Shown here: positions 30,051-62,572 of the stretch, one piece after another
Numbering within the stretch: position 1 is the stretch's first letter
How the letters are laid out: every line of letters starts with the position of its first letter
Source of the DNA: a virus
Lineage: Duplodnaviria > Caudoviricetes
Strand: one strand, 5' to 3'
DNA: 64,000 nucleotides
IMG/VR virus record: IMGVR_UViG_3300046526_000553
Coordinates: 79,779 to 143,778 of that record
The notes under the pieces: generated by a model
Databases searched by the model: none
What the model was told of the DNA's origin: nothing
The model's input: only the letters and a program-made list of their open reading frames with translations
Position numbers and translations under genes: made by a program

Positions 30051-30248
30051 TCAATGGTATTTATCCCATAGAGCCAGATATATAATTACTACCGCAAAAA
30101 TCAGAATCCCCACAATAATACCACCGTAAATTGGCAACAAAACTAGCCACCAGCTCCAATTTATAACTCCTACAAGCTTCAACACAATAAATATTAAACC
30201 TAGCGTCGATAGGAACCCCATTCCACCTGATGTAGTCGTGCTACTCAT
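30051..30248 (-). CDS. Small membrane protein
   Basis: LIFIVLKLVGVINWSWWLVLLPIY, a common phage TM family. Confidence 0.8.
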   Translation of the reverse strand: MSSTTTSGGMGFLSTLGLIFIVLKLVGVINWSWWLVLLPIYGGIIVGILIFAVVIIYLALWDKYH

Positions 30249-43099: not shown

Positions 43100-43516
43100 T
43101 TATACATGCCTATTCCTTTTGAGGGGATAGTCCAACCCGTCGAGACAATTACTCTTTGCTACACTTAATCGTTGGAATAATGTTTTATATGAAATATTTA
43201 TCAAATCGGCAGCATAAGATAAGGGTAAGGTTTCTCCTTTATAACTAACTAATTTAACGCTGCGTCTGTTGTTTGCCTGAGTTCTTCTATCTGCCCAAAC
43301 TACATTGCCATGTATATATCCTAACGAATTGTCTTTACGCTCCAAGGTAAGTTTTGGATTCGGAGCTATGCCAACATCAAGTTTCCAGCTCACTTGTACA
43401 ACTTCAAGATAATAATATCTTCTTGTAGTGTTTACCCTTGACCGTTTTGTTATGGATATCGAACCATCACTATCAAAAACTCCTGCTAGATATATGCTAA
43501 AATATTCCATAGTCAT
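43100..43516 (-). pseudogene. LAGLIDADG N-terminus fused to HNH C-terminus (chimeric remnant)
   Basis: YLAGVFDSDGSISI followed by LTLERKDNSLGYIHGNVVWADRRTQANNRR. Confidence 0.65.
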
Positions 43517-43635
43517 GAATTATACACGAACAGTTAAGGAAAATCAAGCAGAAATAGTTGTAAATAATGTCCTATCCAAGGCAACTAATCGCAGTGGTAT
43601 TATAAACTTATAAGTTAAATTTGGGAGTAGGATTT

Positions 43636-43878
43636 ATGACTCATATTACGATTTTTTCAAACAAAAGCTGTGCGTCTTGCAGTATGATAAAGAAATTCCT
43701 TAAGCTTAAAAATATGTCCTATAATGAAGTCGATTTGGACGAACATCCTGGGCTCCAAGCCGAAGCGTTCAAACTGAGTGGGGTTATGTCAGTCCCAGTT
43801 ATTGTTATTGTTAGGGATGAGAAGCAGTCAGTTTTGGTCGGATATAATCTTGCTAAATTAGCTCCTGCACTGGCTTAG
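43636..43878 (+). CDS. Glutaredoxin/NrdH-like redoxin
   Basis: ITIFSNKSCASC...SVPV...VGYN. Confidence 0.85.
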   Translation: MTHITIFSNKSCASCSMIKKFLKLKNMSYNEVDLDEHPGLQAEAFKLSGVMSVPVIVIVRDEKQSVLVGYNLAKLAPALA

Positions 43879-44360
43879 TTGAATAAAGGATAGTATTTCT
43901 CAAATTTCTCACTGTTTAAGAAAAGAGTCGGTTTCTGCCCCAATTTTAATTCGTGCCACCACAAAGCCATCCGACCTGACCGACCGTTACCATCCGCAAA
44001 ACTATGTACGTGCTCATAACGCTTATGCATTTCAATTGGGTCAAGATTTTGCCAATTTTCTTTCATATCCAAAAGCCAGTTATTAAGCAAATCATCCACT
44101 AACCACCAAGAAGGAGCTATTTTGTCTCCAATATATACATTAATTTTGGACATACTGCGAGTATAACCACGCTGGTCTGTTCTCAGGTCGTCTTGAAGCA
44201 AAGTTATCATTTTCTGGAGTTTACAGATATTGGAAAAAGTCAATTCTGGCTGTTTTTTGAACCAGTTCCAGGCAACTAGGGATTGTTTGTCATAAGCTAG
44301 GTCGTCGATAGACTCTATCAAATTCGATTCATGAATATACTGTTTTATATCGAGTTTCAC
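43875..44360 (-). CDS. Fic/DOC family protein
   Basis: HSFADGNGRSGR Fic motif; ESNLIE N-terminal motif. Confidence 0.9.
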   Translation of the reverse strand: MKLDIKQYIHESNLIESIDDLAYDKQSLVAWNWFKKQPELTFSNICKLQKMITLLQDDLRTDQRGYTRSMSKINVYIGDKIAPSWWLVDDLLNNWLLDMKENWQNLDPIEMHKRYEHVHSFADGNGRSGRMALWWHELKLGQKPTLFLNSEKFEKYYPLFN

Positions 44361-45139: not shown

Positions 45140-45141
45140 GA

Positions 45142-45170
45142 TTGACATTTCCGTTACGCTGGTGTATATT
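45142..45170 (+). promoter_or_regulatory. Promoter of pentamer array 1
   Basis: TTGACA-17-TATATT with gctggtg box; array begins 8 nt downstream. Confidence 0.85.
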
Positions 45171-45177
45171 AATTATT

Positions 45178-45918
45178 GGCTTGGATAGTCCTGCTTAGAC
45201 ACCTCTGGGCTCGGTGCGTCACGGCTAGGCGAGGCAGGCGAGTTGAGTCTGGTCTCGGTGCGTCGTGGCACGTCGTGGTGCGTTGTGGTAATCGGAGCGG
45301 GGCAGGTTATGTTCAGGCAAGTCGGGGCTACGCAGGCACGTCGCCATTTGGCTAGATACGGTTAGTCTAGATATGTTTAGACAGGGCATGGCAGGCAAGG
45401 CTGGGTTCCGATGACTCGTTGGGGCTGGTCGTCACGAGTCACGGCTAGGCGAGGCAGGCTAGGAAAGTCGGGATGCGTCCCGCCATGTCGAGGCGCGTGA
45501 TGACATGACAAGATATGGACAGGCAGGCTTGGCACCGATGTCGCGGTCAGTCGAGACCTGTCAGGGTCAGACTAAGCATGGCAGGCGGGGGAAGTCGCGT
45601 CGGGTTGAGCCGGGGTTTGGTTTGTCGGGTCTTGAGTTAGCGTGTTCTGTTGAGGTTAGGCAGGCAAGTCGTTTCTTGGTATGTCTCCTCGTGGCACGTC
45701 GAGTCATGTCAAGGCGTTACACGGCAGGCATGACGTGGATGGCGAGTTCCGACGAGTCCGTGCGAGATTAGGCAATGCAGGCAAGATGTGACAGGTTCTG
45801 TTGTGTCGAGTTTTGTCAGGTTGGGGCGTAGCTAAGCAATGCATGGCAGGCAAGTCGAGTCCCGGTTAATCGGGTCGAGTCCGGACGAGTCTTGGCGGGG
45901 CGAGGTAAGGTGCGATTA
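45178..45918 (+). ncRNA. Pentamer (G-D-Y-N-N) repeat array, 12 units delimited by GCAGG; candidate guide-RNA array
   Basis: 5-nt phase such as ggcta ggaaa gtcgg gatgc gtccc gccat gtcga; GCAGG at 45234, 45302, 45332, 45391, 45454, 45523, 45581, 45660, 45724, 45777, 45846. Confidence 0.8.
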
Positions 45919-45921
45919 TTA

Positions 45922-45950
45922 TTGACTTTTAGGTGGTGTTGGTGTAATGT
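45922..45950 (+). promoter_or_regulatory. Promoter of pentamer array 2
   Basis: TTGACT-17-TAATGT with gttggtg box; same ATTATTGGC start context as array 1. Confidence 0.7.
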
Positions 45951-45958
45951 ATATTATT

Positions 45959-46057
45959 GGCGGGGAATGTCGAGGCATACTGAGTTAAGTCTTGGTGAGT
46001 CAGGTCGAGACTAGTCAATGCAGGTACGTCGAGGTTTATTATGTCGAGTCAAGGCTT
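45959..46057 (+). ncRNA. Second short pentamer array, 2 units
   Basis: ggcgg ggaat gtcga ggcat actga gttaa gtctt ggtga gtcag gtcga gacta gtcaa tgca ggtac gtcga... Confidence 0.75.
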
Positions 46058-46061
46058 CCCT

Positions 46062-47642
46062 TTATATAAACCACCGCCGTTCAGAGGTCTGAGGCGTGGA
46101 ATTGCTCCACGTCTTTTCCCTTTTTTCACTCATTCCCTCAATATTAACGTTATCATCTTCAGCCTTACTTTCTCTGTCATCAGAATATAAACTCCAAATT
46201 TTTGGAATTTTTCCGCTGGGCTCCCATACAGCTAGAGCACAACTATAGAAAGAATCTGCGTGTCCTTCAGAACTTTCCTGTGCTCGTAAATCATTGTCAA
46301 CCATTAGTATTTGTGAAATCTGGCGACGTTCATTTATAAAATGAATAAGATTTTGATTCACTAACCCACCGAAATGAGCTGCCATAGCACCGGTTCTTCT
46401 GCTACTCATAACAATCGGTTGCATACAACCGTCTAGCTTTCCTCTTTCAGCATAACTTTGCAGCTCGCCCCTAGTATCATCATAATATAAGTTACTTACA
46501 TTAAAATATTCACAAACTCTATTAACATGGTCAACCTGGTCTTTATAATCAATGCCATCAAACCAGTGTCCATAGACTTGTCTATATGAATAAATATCTT
46601 TTCCTTTATCATCCTCATGCTCGAATTTCTTGGCGAATAAAGCTAAATGTGATGGGTGAACTTTTTTACCAATGTCAAGTCCCGCAACAACAATTTCATC
46701 CTGCAATAATGGTTGTGGTTCTAGTTTACAGTTTTCTCTTGTGCTTAGCTCAATTAATTTGTCTCTTTTTATATAAGAACGTGATAATGCTACTGGCATT
46801 GCCTGATATTCTCGGTCAAATGTATCTGCATCCATCGAGATTCGTATAGCATTTAATTGGTCATAACTATATCTTTCAGGCCATAGTGTAACTTTATTTG
46901 GTTCATCAATAATTGAGGGAGCAATTGTTATTTTGAATAAAGTTCCTATACCCTTTTTATCGAAAAAGAAATCTTGGCCAGTCTGTGGGGTCCCAGCCAT
47001 TCGACAGATACCATTAGGTTTCTTAATCATAGGTAATAAGTCGCCCCGAATTGCATTATTTATTTTTTTAATCGCCACTGGGTCAGGAGCAGCGCCATCG
47101 GTTTCGGTTTTTAGCGGATCGTCAACATAAAGTCTGTCACAATGGATTCCTCGATTATTGCCGAGTAATCCTTTGGGGTGTATGGTCATCAACGAGCCTT
47201 TTTCACCCCAACTATAACTTAAGATGCTCTCGGCTTGAGGTTTCCTATCGATAAGCGTTGAGAAGAATGGATTATAAGCAATTTCTTGTTTTAATTTTTT
47301 TAGTTGATAACTAGCCATTGATTCAGAATATGAAAAATATTGTGCTTCGAAGCCTGCATTGTCCGTTGCAATAAATATCGCATAACAAATATCACAGTGT
47401 AATCTTGTACTTTTAAAATGGTCACGACCAGAAACATCAATTGTATACTTATTTTCTTCAAAGTTTTTGGCAATATCTTCCAAGTATTTTCCTGTAACAA
47501 ATGTGCTATTAGGCTCGAAACAATATCTAAATATATTATCTATGAACCAGTAGAATCCTGAAGACCTAGCTTTCTTCCGTGCCAAATCAATAGCCAAAGC
47601 TATCTTCTGCAGCTGCTGTTCTTGCTCATCACTTTCGTTCAT
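46062..47642 (-). CDS. terL: Terminase large subunit
   Basis: Walker A variant GRDHFKS, RGIHCDRLYVDDP, GTPQ, LWPERY, FDREYQ, AGLDIG RNase H-like nuclease, HADS. Confidence 0.9.
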   Translation of the reverse strand: MNESDEQEQQLQKIALAIDLARKKARSSGFYWFIDNIFRYCFEPNSTFVTGKYLEDIAKNFEENKYTIDVSGRDHFKSTRLHCDICYAIFIATDNAGFEAQYFSYSESMASYQLKKLKQEIAYNPFFSTLIDRKPQAESILSYSWGEKGSLMTIHPKGLLGNNRGIHCDRLYVDDPLKTETDGAAPDPVAIKKINNAIRGDLLPMIKKPNGICRMAGTPQTGQDFFFDKKGIGTLFKITIAPSIIDEPNKVTLWPERYSYDQLNAIRISMDADTFDREYQAMPVALSRSYIKRDKLIELSTRENCKLEPQPLLQDEIVVAGLDIGKKVHPSHLALFAKKFEHEDDKGKDIYSYRQVYGHWFDGIDYKDQVDHVNRVCEYFNVSNLYYDDTRGELQSYAERGKLDGCMQPIVMSSRRTGAMAAHFGGLVNQNLIHFINERRQISQILMVDNDLRAQESSEGHADSFYSCALAVWEPSGKIPKIWSLYSDDRESKAEDDNVNIEGMSEKREKTWSNSTPQTSERRWFI

Positions 47643-48726: not shown

Positions 48727-49347
48727 ATGAAAACCCACATATTCTGTATTGTAGACCGTAGCGGTTCAATGCATGGCTTAGAGAAATCTACTATAGATGG
48801 TTATAATGAGTACGTGAACAATCTGCGTAAAGAAAAGAACACCAAACTAACCTTGGTTCTCTTTGACCATGAATACATCGTTCCAGTAGACGATAAACCT
48901 ATTAAAGATACTCCGAAATTAAATAACGAACTTTACCAGCCCCGTGGTAGTACTGCATTACTAGATGCAGTTTGTCGAACCATCAATGAACGTAAAAACA
49001 ACGTCAAGAAAACCGACAAAGCTTTGGTGGTCATCATCACTGATGGATTAGAGAATGCTTCCCATGAGTATAAAACAAAAGATATGCAAGACCTTGTGCA
49101 TGGATTGGAAAAGAAAGGTAACTGGGTTTTTACGTATTTAGGAGCTAATCAAGATGCATGGTCTGTGGCTCAAGCTTGGGGATTTCAGGCAGGTAATGTT
49201 GCTTCATATAATGCCACAGATTTAGGTACACAATCCGTTTATATGGCTTCAAGTGCAAGCAGCTTAAACTTCATACGTTCTGGCAAAACCACTACCGATA
49301 CATTCTTTAGTGAAGAACAGAAAACGAATCTTAAAAAGACTAAGTAA
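48727..49347 (+). CDS. von Willebrand factor A domain protein
   Basis: MIDAS motif DRSGSM, PRGSTALLDA, IITDGLENAS, YLGANQDA. Confidence 0.9.
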   Translation: MKTHIFCIVDRSGSMHGLEKSTIDGYNEYVNNLRKEKNTKLTLVLFDHEYIVPVDDKPIKDTPKLNNELYQPRGSTALLDAVCRTINERKNNVKKTDKALVVIITDGLENASHEYKTKDMQDLVHGLEKKGNWVFTYLGANQDAWSVAQAWGFQAGNVASYNATDLGTQSVYMASSASSLNFIRSGKTTTDTFFSEEQKTNLKKTK

Positions 49348-49708: not shown

Positions 49709-50431
49709 ATGCTCGACTTTTTCATTATAGAATGGTACACTACTGCCATGTCCAAAATCATATGTAAACTTGATGGTTGTGATGAAAGAATGTTAGCGAA
49801 AGGCTTCTGCAGTAAACACTATAAGCAATATAGACGAAAAGGGTTCGCCAATATTAACACTCGGAGACTGCCCAATGAATATAGGATTTGTGGCGATATC
49901 ACATATGTGGGGATATGTAATATAAGAGGCGTGATAATAGCAGAATTCATCATAGACACAGAAGATATGGAAAAAGTAAAAGCTTATGGAAAATGGTGCA
50001 TGTCCGGGGAGTATGTGGGAAGCCGTAGGGATATTGATAAGGGCCTTCGCCTGCATCGTTTCATAATGAATTGCCCTGATGGTTTAGTAGTAAATCATTG
50101 GAATCACAATAAACTAGACTGCAGAAAAATAAATTTGGTTGTATGTACGTCATCAGATAACAATTATTACAGTAAAAAACCAAAAGGTACGAAATATCCT
50201 TATAAGGGCGTTTTCTATGCCCCTACATCACGAAGAATACGAAAATGGTGTGCACAATTTGGGGTTAATTACAAAAAATGTGTCATTAGCTCTTTGAATG
50301 ATATGGAGGAGGCAGCTTGGATATATGACCAAATCATTATGCAAATAGCCGGGGAGTTTGCATATACAAATTTCAAATGGGATGACCGAAATAACTATAT
50401 CGGTGCCGATGGTCCAGATATGCTAGTGTAA
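49709..50431 (+). CDS. HNH-AP2 homing endonuclease
   Basis: AKGFCSKHY, LHRFIM...VVNHWNHNKLDCRKINL, YKGV...AAWIYD; real start probably MSKIIC. Confidence 0.85.
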   Translation: MLDFFIIEWYTTAMSKIICKLDGCDERMLAKGFCSKHYKQYRRKGFANINTRRLPNEYRICGDITYVGICNIRGVIIAEFIIDTEDMEKVKAYGKWCMSGEYVGSRRDIDKGLRLHRFIMNCPDGLVVNHWNHNKLDCRKINLVVCTSSDNNYYSKKPKGTKYPYKGVFYAPTSRRIRKWCAQFGVNYKKCVISSLNDMEEAAWIYDQIIMQIAGEFAYTNFKWDDRNNYIGADGPDMLV

Positions 50432-62205: not shown

Positions 62206-62572
62206 GGGGATGAAATAGATTTCGACAGTACATTGATAATTAGAGAAGCAGGCCGCTTGTTCAGCGTTATAGGGCACAATGTTTTAGATGCAAAATCTCA
62301 AACTATTAGCGACATGGTAGACAGTATCTTCGCTGGACGCCAGACCGCATCAGTCTCAGTCTGAAATTGAGACCACTTAATCCGAGTTCTTTGTTAGTAG
62401 GAGGCGGTGTCATATCAAACAAAGTGGTGAGTCAGCGTTTGCTAGAACGTAAAACTAGCTGGCGACGGGTGAACACACCCCAGTTGTTTGTGACTTTAAA
62501 CAAACTAAGCCTGTAGAAAACTAATTTGAAAAAATGCTGGACTCCAAGGGCAGAGCTTGGACATCTCCACCA
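62206..62572 (+). ncRNA. ssrA: tmRNA, one-piece
   Basis: Acceptor stem GGGGATG/CATCTCC with G3.U wobble and encoded ACCA end; GATTTCGAC near the 5' end; tag frame 62290-62364 AKSQTISDMVDSIFAGRQTASVSV*. Confidence 0.93.

What the first reader, a model, noticed from the sequence alone, without database searches (positions are those of the whole stretch)
45457..46022. The variable dinucleotides read like codon positions 1-2 of target genes
Seen: NN strings from clean units include aa gt tt at tc gt ac ga at aa gt ac; gg aa gc gg ga gg tt tt gg tt tt gt ct ga ta; aa ga cc ta gg ga cg ga tt gg ga aa gc; and gg at ga at ga aa tt ga ag ga ta aa. By hand count, 58 of 78 dinucleotides in six clean units start with a purine, the bias typical of codon position 1. 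Inference: if every third target base is skipped, these units specify coding sequence independently of wobble (roughly KVFISVTEIKVT, GKAGEGFFGLFVLDY, KDPYGERDLGEKA, GIEIEKLDRDYK), so synonymous escape would fail. I found none of these peptides in this window by eye, so any targets would be other elements. Caveat: any dinucleotide string can be translated this way.
Basis: inference. Interest (0 to 1): 0.8.

Follow-up and report, generated by a model that had tools for sequence, protein, structure and literature searches.

The report
Second VIPR guide-RNA array in phage
This 0.9-kb non-coding stretch beside the terminase genes of an uncultured 144-kb phage is a second array of guide RNAs for the phage's VIPR system (a CRISPR-like RNA-guided DNA silencer described in 2026 preprints). 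Its variable letter pairs do look like the first two letters of codons, as published for VIPR, but I could not find what these guides are aimed at.

Summary
Window 45142-46125 (+) is a promoter-to-terminator, GC-rich, non-coding array of pentamers nn-G(T/G)C. It has about 13 units joined by a GGC-A-GGC 4-mer junction. The four quoted NN strings and the 58/78 purine count reproduce exactly.

The kind is already published: VIPR vrRNAs (bioRxiv 10.64898/2026.04.26.720920, .720927, 2026.10.15.759431). They read targets as NN-x-NN-x, with x on the codon wobble position. The genome has one vipr gene, 47 kb upstream, with its own array of the same grammar.

Two guides of that sibling array obey the rule:
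- One matches rival phages' vipr genes (up to 22/24), only with a 1-nt skip and in codon phase.
- One matches at least 120 large-serine-recombinase genes at the catalytic motif, 119/121 in phase.

For the window's own guides the support is compositional. N1 fits codon position 1 and N2 fits position 2. The sense position-1-2 model scores +12 nats and all five other phase models score negative.

No natural target was found for them. The few hits are at chance level.

Verdict: a new member of a known kind. The stand-alone placement and the G-U-C-rich scaffold are minor variants. This scan has already noted VIPR-like arrays in at least 61 other genomes.

The parts
45142..45170 (+). Promoter P1 of the array (TTGACA-17-TATATT with an upstream TGGTG)
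   Evidence: 11 of 12 consensus match. It belongs to a promoter class TTGAC..TGGTGTA found at least 13 times in the genome, including the vipr operon promoter.
45181..45235 (+). Leader or first unit (11 pentamers), poorly codon-like
   Evidence: Parse. The sense position-1-2 model scores -2.1 nats.
45236..45455 (+). Units 2-4, with junction 4-mers aGGC at 45236, 45334 and 45393 and internal 4-mers aATC (45290) and tGAC (45412)
45456..45524 (+). Unit 5: 13 pentamers, NN = TA AA GG GC CC AT GA GC AT AT AA AT CA
   Evidence: Best own-genome match is 21/26 at about window 30187-30225, reached by 2 of 300 shuffles.
45525..45582 (+). Unit 6 (internal 4-mer tGTC at 45539)
45583..45661 (+).
   Evidence: The single IMG/VR hit to its 9-NN core extends at chance level, 5/12.
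45662..45725 (+).
   Evidence: No hit in IMG/VR or in the 401 genomes sampled.
45726..45847 (+). Units 9 and 10
   Evidence: IMG/VR core scan for unit 10 found nothing.
45848..45916 (+). It runs into promoter P2.
   Evidence: IMG/VR scan found nothing.
45922..45955 (+). Internal promoter P2 of the same class (TTGACT..TGGTGTAATGTATATT)
   Evidence: Sequence read.
45957..46060 (+).
   Evidence: Unit 12 gave the only above-shuffle hits, but they lie in unrelated housekeeping or phage genes.
46091..46125 (+). Intrinsic terminator closing the array transcript. It lies antisense inside the 3' end of terL.
   Evidence: 10-bp stem plus T-tract
46062..47642 (-). Terminase large subunit gene (a neighbour, not part of the system)
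   Evidence: phrog_38, E 3e-20. No window guide matches it or its 73 homologues above shuffles.

Best explanation
Window 45142-46125 (+) is a stand-alone, separately promoted array of about 13 VIPR guide RNAs (vrRNAs). They serve the phage's single Vipr protein, a Cas7-like RAMP encoded 47 kb upstream at genome 77240-77872 (-).

In the published mechanism, Vipr protomers polymerise along each vrRNA, one per pentamer. They hide the semi-constant triplet (here G-[U/G]-C) and present the two variable bases. The presented pairs bind double-stranded DNA as NN-x-NN-x, flipping out every third target base. Because x falls on the wobble position, a guide reads the amino-acid-determining bases of a gene, and binding silences transcription.

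Shown here:
- the array anatomy, promoter and terminator;
- a Vipr homologue in the genome;
- the 1-nt-skip, codon-phased rule for two sibling guides;
- the codon-like composition of the window's NN.

Inferred:
- that the window units are transcribed, processed at the GGC-A-GGC junctions and loaded on Vipr;
- that they silence genes of competing elements whose sequences are not in the collections I could search.
For: 1. Anatomy. Period-5 pentamers nn-GKC form units of 7-15 repeats with -1 junction 4-mers, behind a promoter and before a terminator.

2. Same grammar beside vipr. The array next to vipr (genome 75830-76415 and 77084-77148, minus strand) uses the same GGCAGGC junction and GTC/GGC scaffold, and the same promoter class.

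3. Vipr protein.
- The only significant PDB sequence match is 'SUSP1 Vipr protein' 36pp_D. E is 2.8e-3 alone and 2.2e-5 with a 33-sequence profile. The match covers the thumb Arg and the G-loop.
- The AF2 model has pLDDT 78. The top Foldseek PDB hits are Cas7-family backbone chains of type III Csm and type VII effector complexes, probability 1.0.
- There is one copy in the genome.

4. Skip rule.
- In 83 related loci, this phage's guides of 10 or more NN reached 80% only through the vipr-proximal guide at skip 1 (11 hits). Apart from that there was one match between arrays at skip 3 and noise-level 16/20 matches of one 10-NN guide.
- Pooling 342 family and own guides, those of 11 or more NN gave 31 hits of at least 85% at skip 1. 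Skips 0, 2 and 3 gave 0, 2 and 2. 25 of the 31 are the recombinase hits collected by the scan.

5. Codon phase.
- 119 of 121 recombinase hits are in phase. The peptide is Y[AV]RKST[DE]4RQ at the start of the Pfam Resolvase domain.
- All vipr hits lie at one in-phase site.

6. Window NN composition.
- N1 fits codon position 1 (chi-square 9.4, against 54-55 for positions 2 and 3).
- N2 fits position 2 (chi-square 4.9, p 0.18).
- The sense position-1-2 model scores +12 nats, the others -6 to -22, and the swapped order -18.
- Family-wide, 4024 NN give +237 nats.

7. No self-target stands above shuffled controls.
Against: - No natural target was found for any of the window's guides (Tried and rejected lists the collections searched).
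- Unit 12's best hits lie in two unrelated housekeeping genes, a P-type ATPase and a thioredoxin-reductase-like gene. They miss the last two NN. Their number is about what the size of the metagenome collection predicts.
- The scaffold is G-U-C rich: T at the second triplet position in 38-46% of pentamers, against about 5% in relatives. This departs from the published GGY.
- Several units carry degenerate triplets and internal register shifts.
- Codon-like composition alone could come from an unknown constraint on N4/N5.
Confidence: 0.85

Rival explanations
1. It is a real vrRNA array, but an evolutionary leftover. The guides no longer have living targets, or the array is decaying and contributes nothing.
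For: No target was found for about 13 guides in any collection searched. Several units have degenerate triplets and internal -1 shifts. The first unit is not codon-like.
Against: Two consensus promoters and a terminator are intact. G at triplet position 1 is kept in most pentamers. The NN composition is still codon-like. The papers report that many vrRNAs of working systems also have no identifiable target.
Confidence: 0.08
2. It is a decoy or redirecting array. Its RNAs load onto Vipr proteins of rival phages and send them to harmless sites, or soak them up, as satellites are reported to do with solo vrRNAs.
For: The paper describes solo vrRNAs that redirect a helper phage's VIPR. The array stands apart from vipr. 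The same phage carries a guide aimed at rivals' vipr genes.
Against: This phage has its own vipr, and the array uses this phage's unusual GTC-rich scaffold, which relatives rarely use. That argues for loading on its own protein. No multi-copy decoy site was found in the 401 genomes searched with one guide.
Confidence: 0.04
3. It is not a guide array. It is a platform of G(U/G)C triplets spaced by two bases that binds a ring-shaped or filament-forming protein (as TRAP binds GAG/UAG repeats), or a DNA site for terminase (pac).
For: The triplet plus 2-nt spacing resembles the TRAP site layout (general knowledge). The array abuts terL and terS.
Against: An identical grammar sits next to a Vipr gene elsewhere in the genome, and guides from that array have sequence-specific, phase-locked targets. 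The spacer dinucleotides are not compositionally free. No guide matches terL or terS.
Confidence: 0.02

Closest known systems
VIPR systems with 'staggered' vrRNA arrays (bioRxiv 10.64898/2026.04.26.720920, fig. S18 legend). The characterised example of the family is type II VIPR of Escherichia phage SUSP1.
   Same: - A phage-encoded small RAMP (Vipr), an accessory gene, and arrays of 9-16 pentamers made of a conserved triplet plus a variable NN.
- The 1-nt skip rule, with the skipped base on the wobble position.
- Guides aimed at rival vipr genes and at recombinases.
- No self-targeting.
- Units that abut through a register shift of one base.
   Different: - The triplet here is G-[U/G]-C (GTC 28-35%, GGC 8-20%) rather than GGY.
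- There is no long invariant 3' tail or pseudoknot as in type II.
- Vipr shares only a short recognisable stretch with SUSP1 Vipr, and the G-loop reads GEGRP instead of GDWRP.
- The window's array lies 47 kb from vipr, with two promoters of its own.
Solo (orphan) vrRNAs of F5 satellites and VIPR-null SUSP1-family phages (bioRxiv 10.64898/2026.10.15.759431)
   Same: vrRNA genes stand away from any vipr gene. Guides elsewhere in the same genome are directed at relatives' vipr, with lower self-match than non-self match (17/24 against up to 22/24 here).
   Different: - The published solo loci hold 1-2 vrRNAs in elements that lack vipr.
- This is an array of about 13 units in a phage that keeps vipr.
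- Its targets are unknown.
Class 1 CRISPR effector backbones (Cas7/Csm3 filaments on crRNA)
   Same: The predicted fold is RAMP with a thumb (Foldseek probability 1.0 to Cas7-family chains of Csm and type VII complexes). Pairing is interrupted periodically by a thumb.
   Different: There is no repeat-spacer array and no other Cas-like genes beside vipr. Three guide bases and one target base are displaced every 5 nt of guide, instead of one base every 6.

Membership tests
VIPR (Vipr + vrRNA) | A Vipr protein (minimal RAMP with G-loop and thumb) encoded in the same genome | tested here: met
   A 231-aa ORF at genome 77189-77884 (-), outside the window. Its only significant PDB sequence hit is SUSP1 Vipr (E 2.2e-5 with a profile). 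The predicted fold matches Cas7-family RAMPs. Single copy.
VIPR (Vipr + vrRNA) | vrRNA made of tandem pentamers: a conserved triplet alternating with a hypervariable NN, about 9-16 per RNA | tested here: met
   Lag-5 periodicity of 0.41, and units of 7-15 pentamers. The triplet is a variant (GKC). Related loci carry the same layout with different NN.
VIPR (Vipr + vrRNA) | Targets are read with exactly one skipped base between NN pairs | tested here: met
   Met for sibling guides of this phage and for the family. For the window's own guides it is inconclusive, because no target was found.
VIPR (Vipr + vrRNA) | The skipped base falls on the codon wobble position of coding targets | tested here: met
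   119 of 121 recombinase hits and all vipr hits are in phase. For the window guides the evidence is composition only.
VIPR (Vipr + vrRNA) | No self-targeting at 80% NN match or more | tested here: inconclusive
   The best own-genome matches are at noise level for all skips. One is borderline: 21/26 (0.81) for unit 5, reached by 2 of 300 shuffles.
VIPR (Vipr + vrRNA) | An accessory vap gene next to vipr | tested here: met
   A 189-aa ORF lies between the single vrRNA and the main array. Relatives have an ORF in the same position. It hits phrog_15946 (unknown function) and no Pfam family. Its function was not tested.
VIPR (Vipr + vrRNA) | vrRNAs are expressed, processed and co-purify with Vipr | not testable with these tools
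Only the promoter and terminator predictions are available.
Type II VIPR (SUSP1 / P. fulva clade) | An invariant structured 3' tail (pseudoknot) after the repeat tract, and a strict GGY triplet | tested here: not met
   Units end in two semi-conserved pentamers and a GGC-A-GGC junction, with no long tail. The triplet is GTC/GGC/GGT/GTT. This is not a type II member. It resembles the 'staggered' architecture instead.
CRISPR array | Direct repeats of 20 nt or more separated by unique spacers, with cas genes nearby | tested here: not met
   Tandem Repeats Finder reports only a 10-nt period fragment. The structure is pentameric. Pfam finds nothing Cas-related in the neighbouring ORFs.

The most novel reading that the evidence does not exclude
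The G-U-C-rich scaffold is a private handle that only this phage's Vipr loads, which would keep rivals from borrowing its guides. The terminase-side array would then be a separately timed second magazine, aimed at genes of a host-resident element or of the host itself that is not yet sequenced. All identified targets of this phage's guides are in the sense orientation.
Probability: 0.12. Interest if true: 0.55.

Novelty: new member of a known kind. Interest (0 to 1): 0.3.

Why it matters
This case adds four things:
- The rule holds in a distant Vipr clade. That clade has about 2,400 unnamed homologues in public data, carried by phages of 41-68% GC.
- One genome can carry a second, independently promoted array far from vipr.
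- The scaffold triplet tolerates U at its middle position.
- One sibling guide spells the catalytic motif of large serine recombinases that are common in Patescibacteria, Omnitrophota and Planctomycetia genome bins. This points to integrative elements as the enemy.

None of this changes the published picture.

Tried and rejected
Searches for targets of the window guides:
1. Exact gapped-pattern scans of IMG/VR.
 - Units 8, 11 and 10: 0 hits.
 - Unit 7: 1 hit, extending 5/12, which is chance level.
 - Unit 5: 1 hit, 20/26.
 - Unit 12 core: 9 hits in five unrelated gene families, all in phase. This is what a codon-like guide gives by chance.
2. Metagenome scan for unit 12: two hits, in a P-type ATPase and a thioredoxin-reductase-like gene. 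I rejected them as targets because the genes are unrelated, the tail NN mismatch, and the count is near expectation.
3. Local scans with all guides at skips 0-3:
 - the phage's own genome;
 - 83 vipr loci;
 - 120 recombinase loci;
 - 17 whole related phage genomes, about 1 Mb.
 No window guide of 10 or more NN exceeded shuffled controls, except unit 12.
4. One guide with up to 3 mismatches in 401 genomes of the class of a Saccharimonadales bin: none.

Other ideas tested:
5. 'The guides spell the neighbouring gene as rivals carry it.' No guide matches terL, terS or 73 TerL homologues above shuffles.
6. Relatives of TerL in INPHARED and IMG/VR: none.
7. Rfam: only the tmRNA.
8. A single-sequence fold of Vipr was useless, pLDDT 36.
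10. Apparent distant arrays in a 138-kb relative turned out not to be pentamer arrays.
11. My first idea, a TRAP-like protein-binding RNA, was dropped once the Vipr gene and phased targets were found.

Full report
**What is there.**
- Window 45141-46062 is non-coding and GC-rich: 55-62% against 39.6% for the 143,778-bp phage genome. It is G/T-skewed on the + strand.
- Same-base autocorrelation peaks at multiples of 5 (0.41 at lag 5).
- A dynamic-programming parse resolves pentamers nn-G[T/G]C in runs of 7-15. The runs are separated by 4-mers, mostly aGGC within GGC-A-GGC, that shift the register by -1.
- A strong promoter (TTGACA-17-TATATT, 45142-45170) precedes the array. A second promoter of the same class sits inside it at 45922. 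An intrinsic terminator at 46091-46115 closes it, overlapping the 3' end of the convergent terL gene.

**What kind of thing it is.**
- A second array with the same grammar lies on the other strand at genome 75.8-77.2 kb.
- There the order is: promoter, a 231-aa gene, one repeat unit, a 189-aa gene, then a 600-bp array.
A paper search found three 2026 preprints describing Viral Interference Programmable Repeat systems.
- In those systems a minimal Cas7-like RAMP (Vipr) polymerises on vrRNAs made of GGY/NN pentamers. It binds dsDNA by pairing only the NN bases and skips every third target base.
- The skipped base falls on the codon wobble position. Known targets are satellites' recombinases and rivals' vipr genes.
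- The preprints also report stand-alone vrRNAs and 'staggered' arrays whose units overlap by one base.

**The protein.**
- The 231-aa protein has no Pfam family.
- Its only significant match among PDB sequences is 'SUSP1 Vipr protein'. E is 2.8e-3 alone and 2.2e-5 with a 33-sequence profile. The match covers the thumb arginine and the G-loop.
- With that alignment AlphaFold gives pLDDT 78. The top Foldseek hits are Cas7-family backbone chains of type III Csm and type VII effector complexes, probability 1.0.
- There are about 2,445 unnamed homologues in public data. This genome holds one copy.
- Related loci show the same layout of vipr, unit, vap and array, with different NN.

**Does the gapped, codon-phased rule hold in this phage? 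Two sibling guides say yes.**
1. The single unit between vipr and vap has 12 NN.
 - It matches the vipr gene of a relative at 22/24. The target codons read E D F E Q A K H I S T E, with NN on positions 1-2.
 - It reaches at least 80% in 11 of 83 related loci, always at the same in-phase site and only at skip 1.
 - The phage's own vipr scores 17/24 there.
2. A 16-NN guide of the vipr-linked array is conserved in a relative's array.
 - I scanned it as a 22-base gapped pattern over 185,579 species genomes.
 - 119 of 121 hits are in phase. They lie at the N-terminus of 450-600-aa ORFs, with the peptide Y[AV]RKST[DE]4RQ.
 - Two of these ORFs tested in Pfam have Resolvase, Recombinase and Zn_ribbon_recom domains, so they are large serine recombinases.
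 - The hits are mostly in Patescibacteria, Omnitrophota and Planctomycetia bins.

Pooling 342 guides (family plus this phage's own), those of 11 or more NN gave 31 hits of at least 85% at skip 1. Skips 0, 2 and 3 gave 0, 2 and 2. 25 of the 31 are the recombinase hits collected by the scan above. 47 of 62 ORF-located hits skip the wobble base.

**The window's own dinucleotides.**
- Over 149 NN, N1 is G 57, A 43, T 36, C 13. N2 is A 58, T 42, C 25, G 24.
- N1 fits this phage's codon position 1 (chi-square 9.4, against 54-55 for positions 2 and 3). N2 fits position 2 (4.9, p 0.18).
- A dinucleotide model of sense positions 1-2 scores +12 nats over genomic background. The five other phase and orientation models score -6 to -22, and swapping the two bases gives -18.
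- A single local mutation bias therefore does not explain the pattern.
- Across the family, 4024 NN give +237 nats for the same model.

**Targets of the window guides: not found.**
- No guide of 10 or more NN exceeded shuffled controls in the own genome, 83 vipr loci, 120 recombinase loci or 17 whole related phages.
- Exact-core scans of IMG/VR for six guides gave nothing or chance-level extensions.
- Unit 12 gave 22/26 matches in a P-type ATPase and a thioredoxin-reductase-like gene. These are unrelated, both miss the tail NN, and are about as many as the collection's size predicts, so I do not accept them.
- The nine IMG/VR hits of the unit-12 core are all in phase and sense, but in five unrelated genes. 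This shows only that the guide is composed like coding sequence.
- The guides do not spell terL or terS or their homologues.

**Differences from the published examples.**
- The triplet is G-U-C rich. T occupies the middle position in 38-46% of pentamers, against about 5% in relatives, where GGC makes up 58%.
- There is no long 3' tail.
- The window array is a multi-unit stand-alone array in a phage that keeps vipr.
- These are variations within a known kind.

**Verdict.** It is verified here on sibling guides and supported by composition for these units. The targets remain unknown.

Noticed in passing
window 62206-62572 (+): The phage carries a full-length tmRNA gene (Rfam RF00023, 62.3 bits). 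ARAGORN reported no tRNA or tmRNA in the window.
   Followed up: no
genome-wide; in the window e.g. 24284(-), 25800(-), 26348(+), 30054(-), 32326(-), 34574(-), 35451(-), 45142(+), 45922(+), 59297(+): A phage-wide promoter class, TTGAC(A/T)T..N..TGTTGGTGTA(T/A)..T, occurs at least 13 times. It looks like an extended -10 consensus shared by the two VIPR arrays and many other transcription units.
   Followed up: partly
window about 30187-30225 (-): Unit 5 of the array matches the phage's own DNA at 21/26 NN under the 1-nt skip rule. Two of 300 shuffles reach this score. The site lies in a short ORF of 59-66 codons, next to one of the promoters above. It is probably chance, but it is the only near self-target.
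   Followed up: partly
L004:5406 guide -> L014:1123; L084:11292 guide -> L195:5569 and L044:2328: Guides of related phages spell Walker-A motifs of ATPase genes in other elements (LVGDTGTGKTT, GEPGIGKS), in phase and in the sense orientation.
   Followed up: no
L043:6626 guide -> L089, L139, L146, L196: A relative's guide matches the antisense strand of the C-terminal region of the same large-serine-recombinase family (about codon 446, IKKIGSNFI). It also skips the wobble base. Several phages therefore aim at this recombinase family at different sites.
   Followed up: no
L019:9829 guide -> vipr N-termini in L024, L058, L059, L072: Another relative's 9-NN guide matches early codons of rival vipr genes (IKPANIQT), as reported for SUSP1-family solo vrRNAs.
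   Followed up: no
window 43100-44360 and 49709-50431: The array's neighbourhood holds a Fic/DOC-domain gene (43875-44360, -) and HNH-type endonuclease genes (43100-43516, -, with a weak LAGLIDADG hit as well; and 49709-50431, +). A VWA-domain gene lies just outside these stretches, at 48727-49347 (+).
   Followed up: no
17 whole IMG/VR genomes carrying Vipr homologues (handles G405, G407, G409-G423): Phages carrying this Vipr clade span 41-68% GC and 29-138 kb, so the clade is spread over phages of very different hosts.
   Followed up: no
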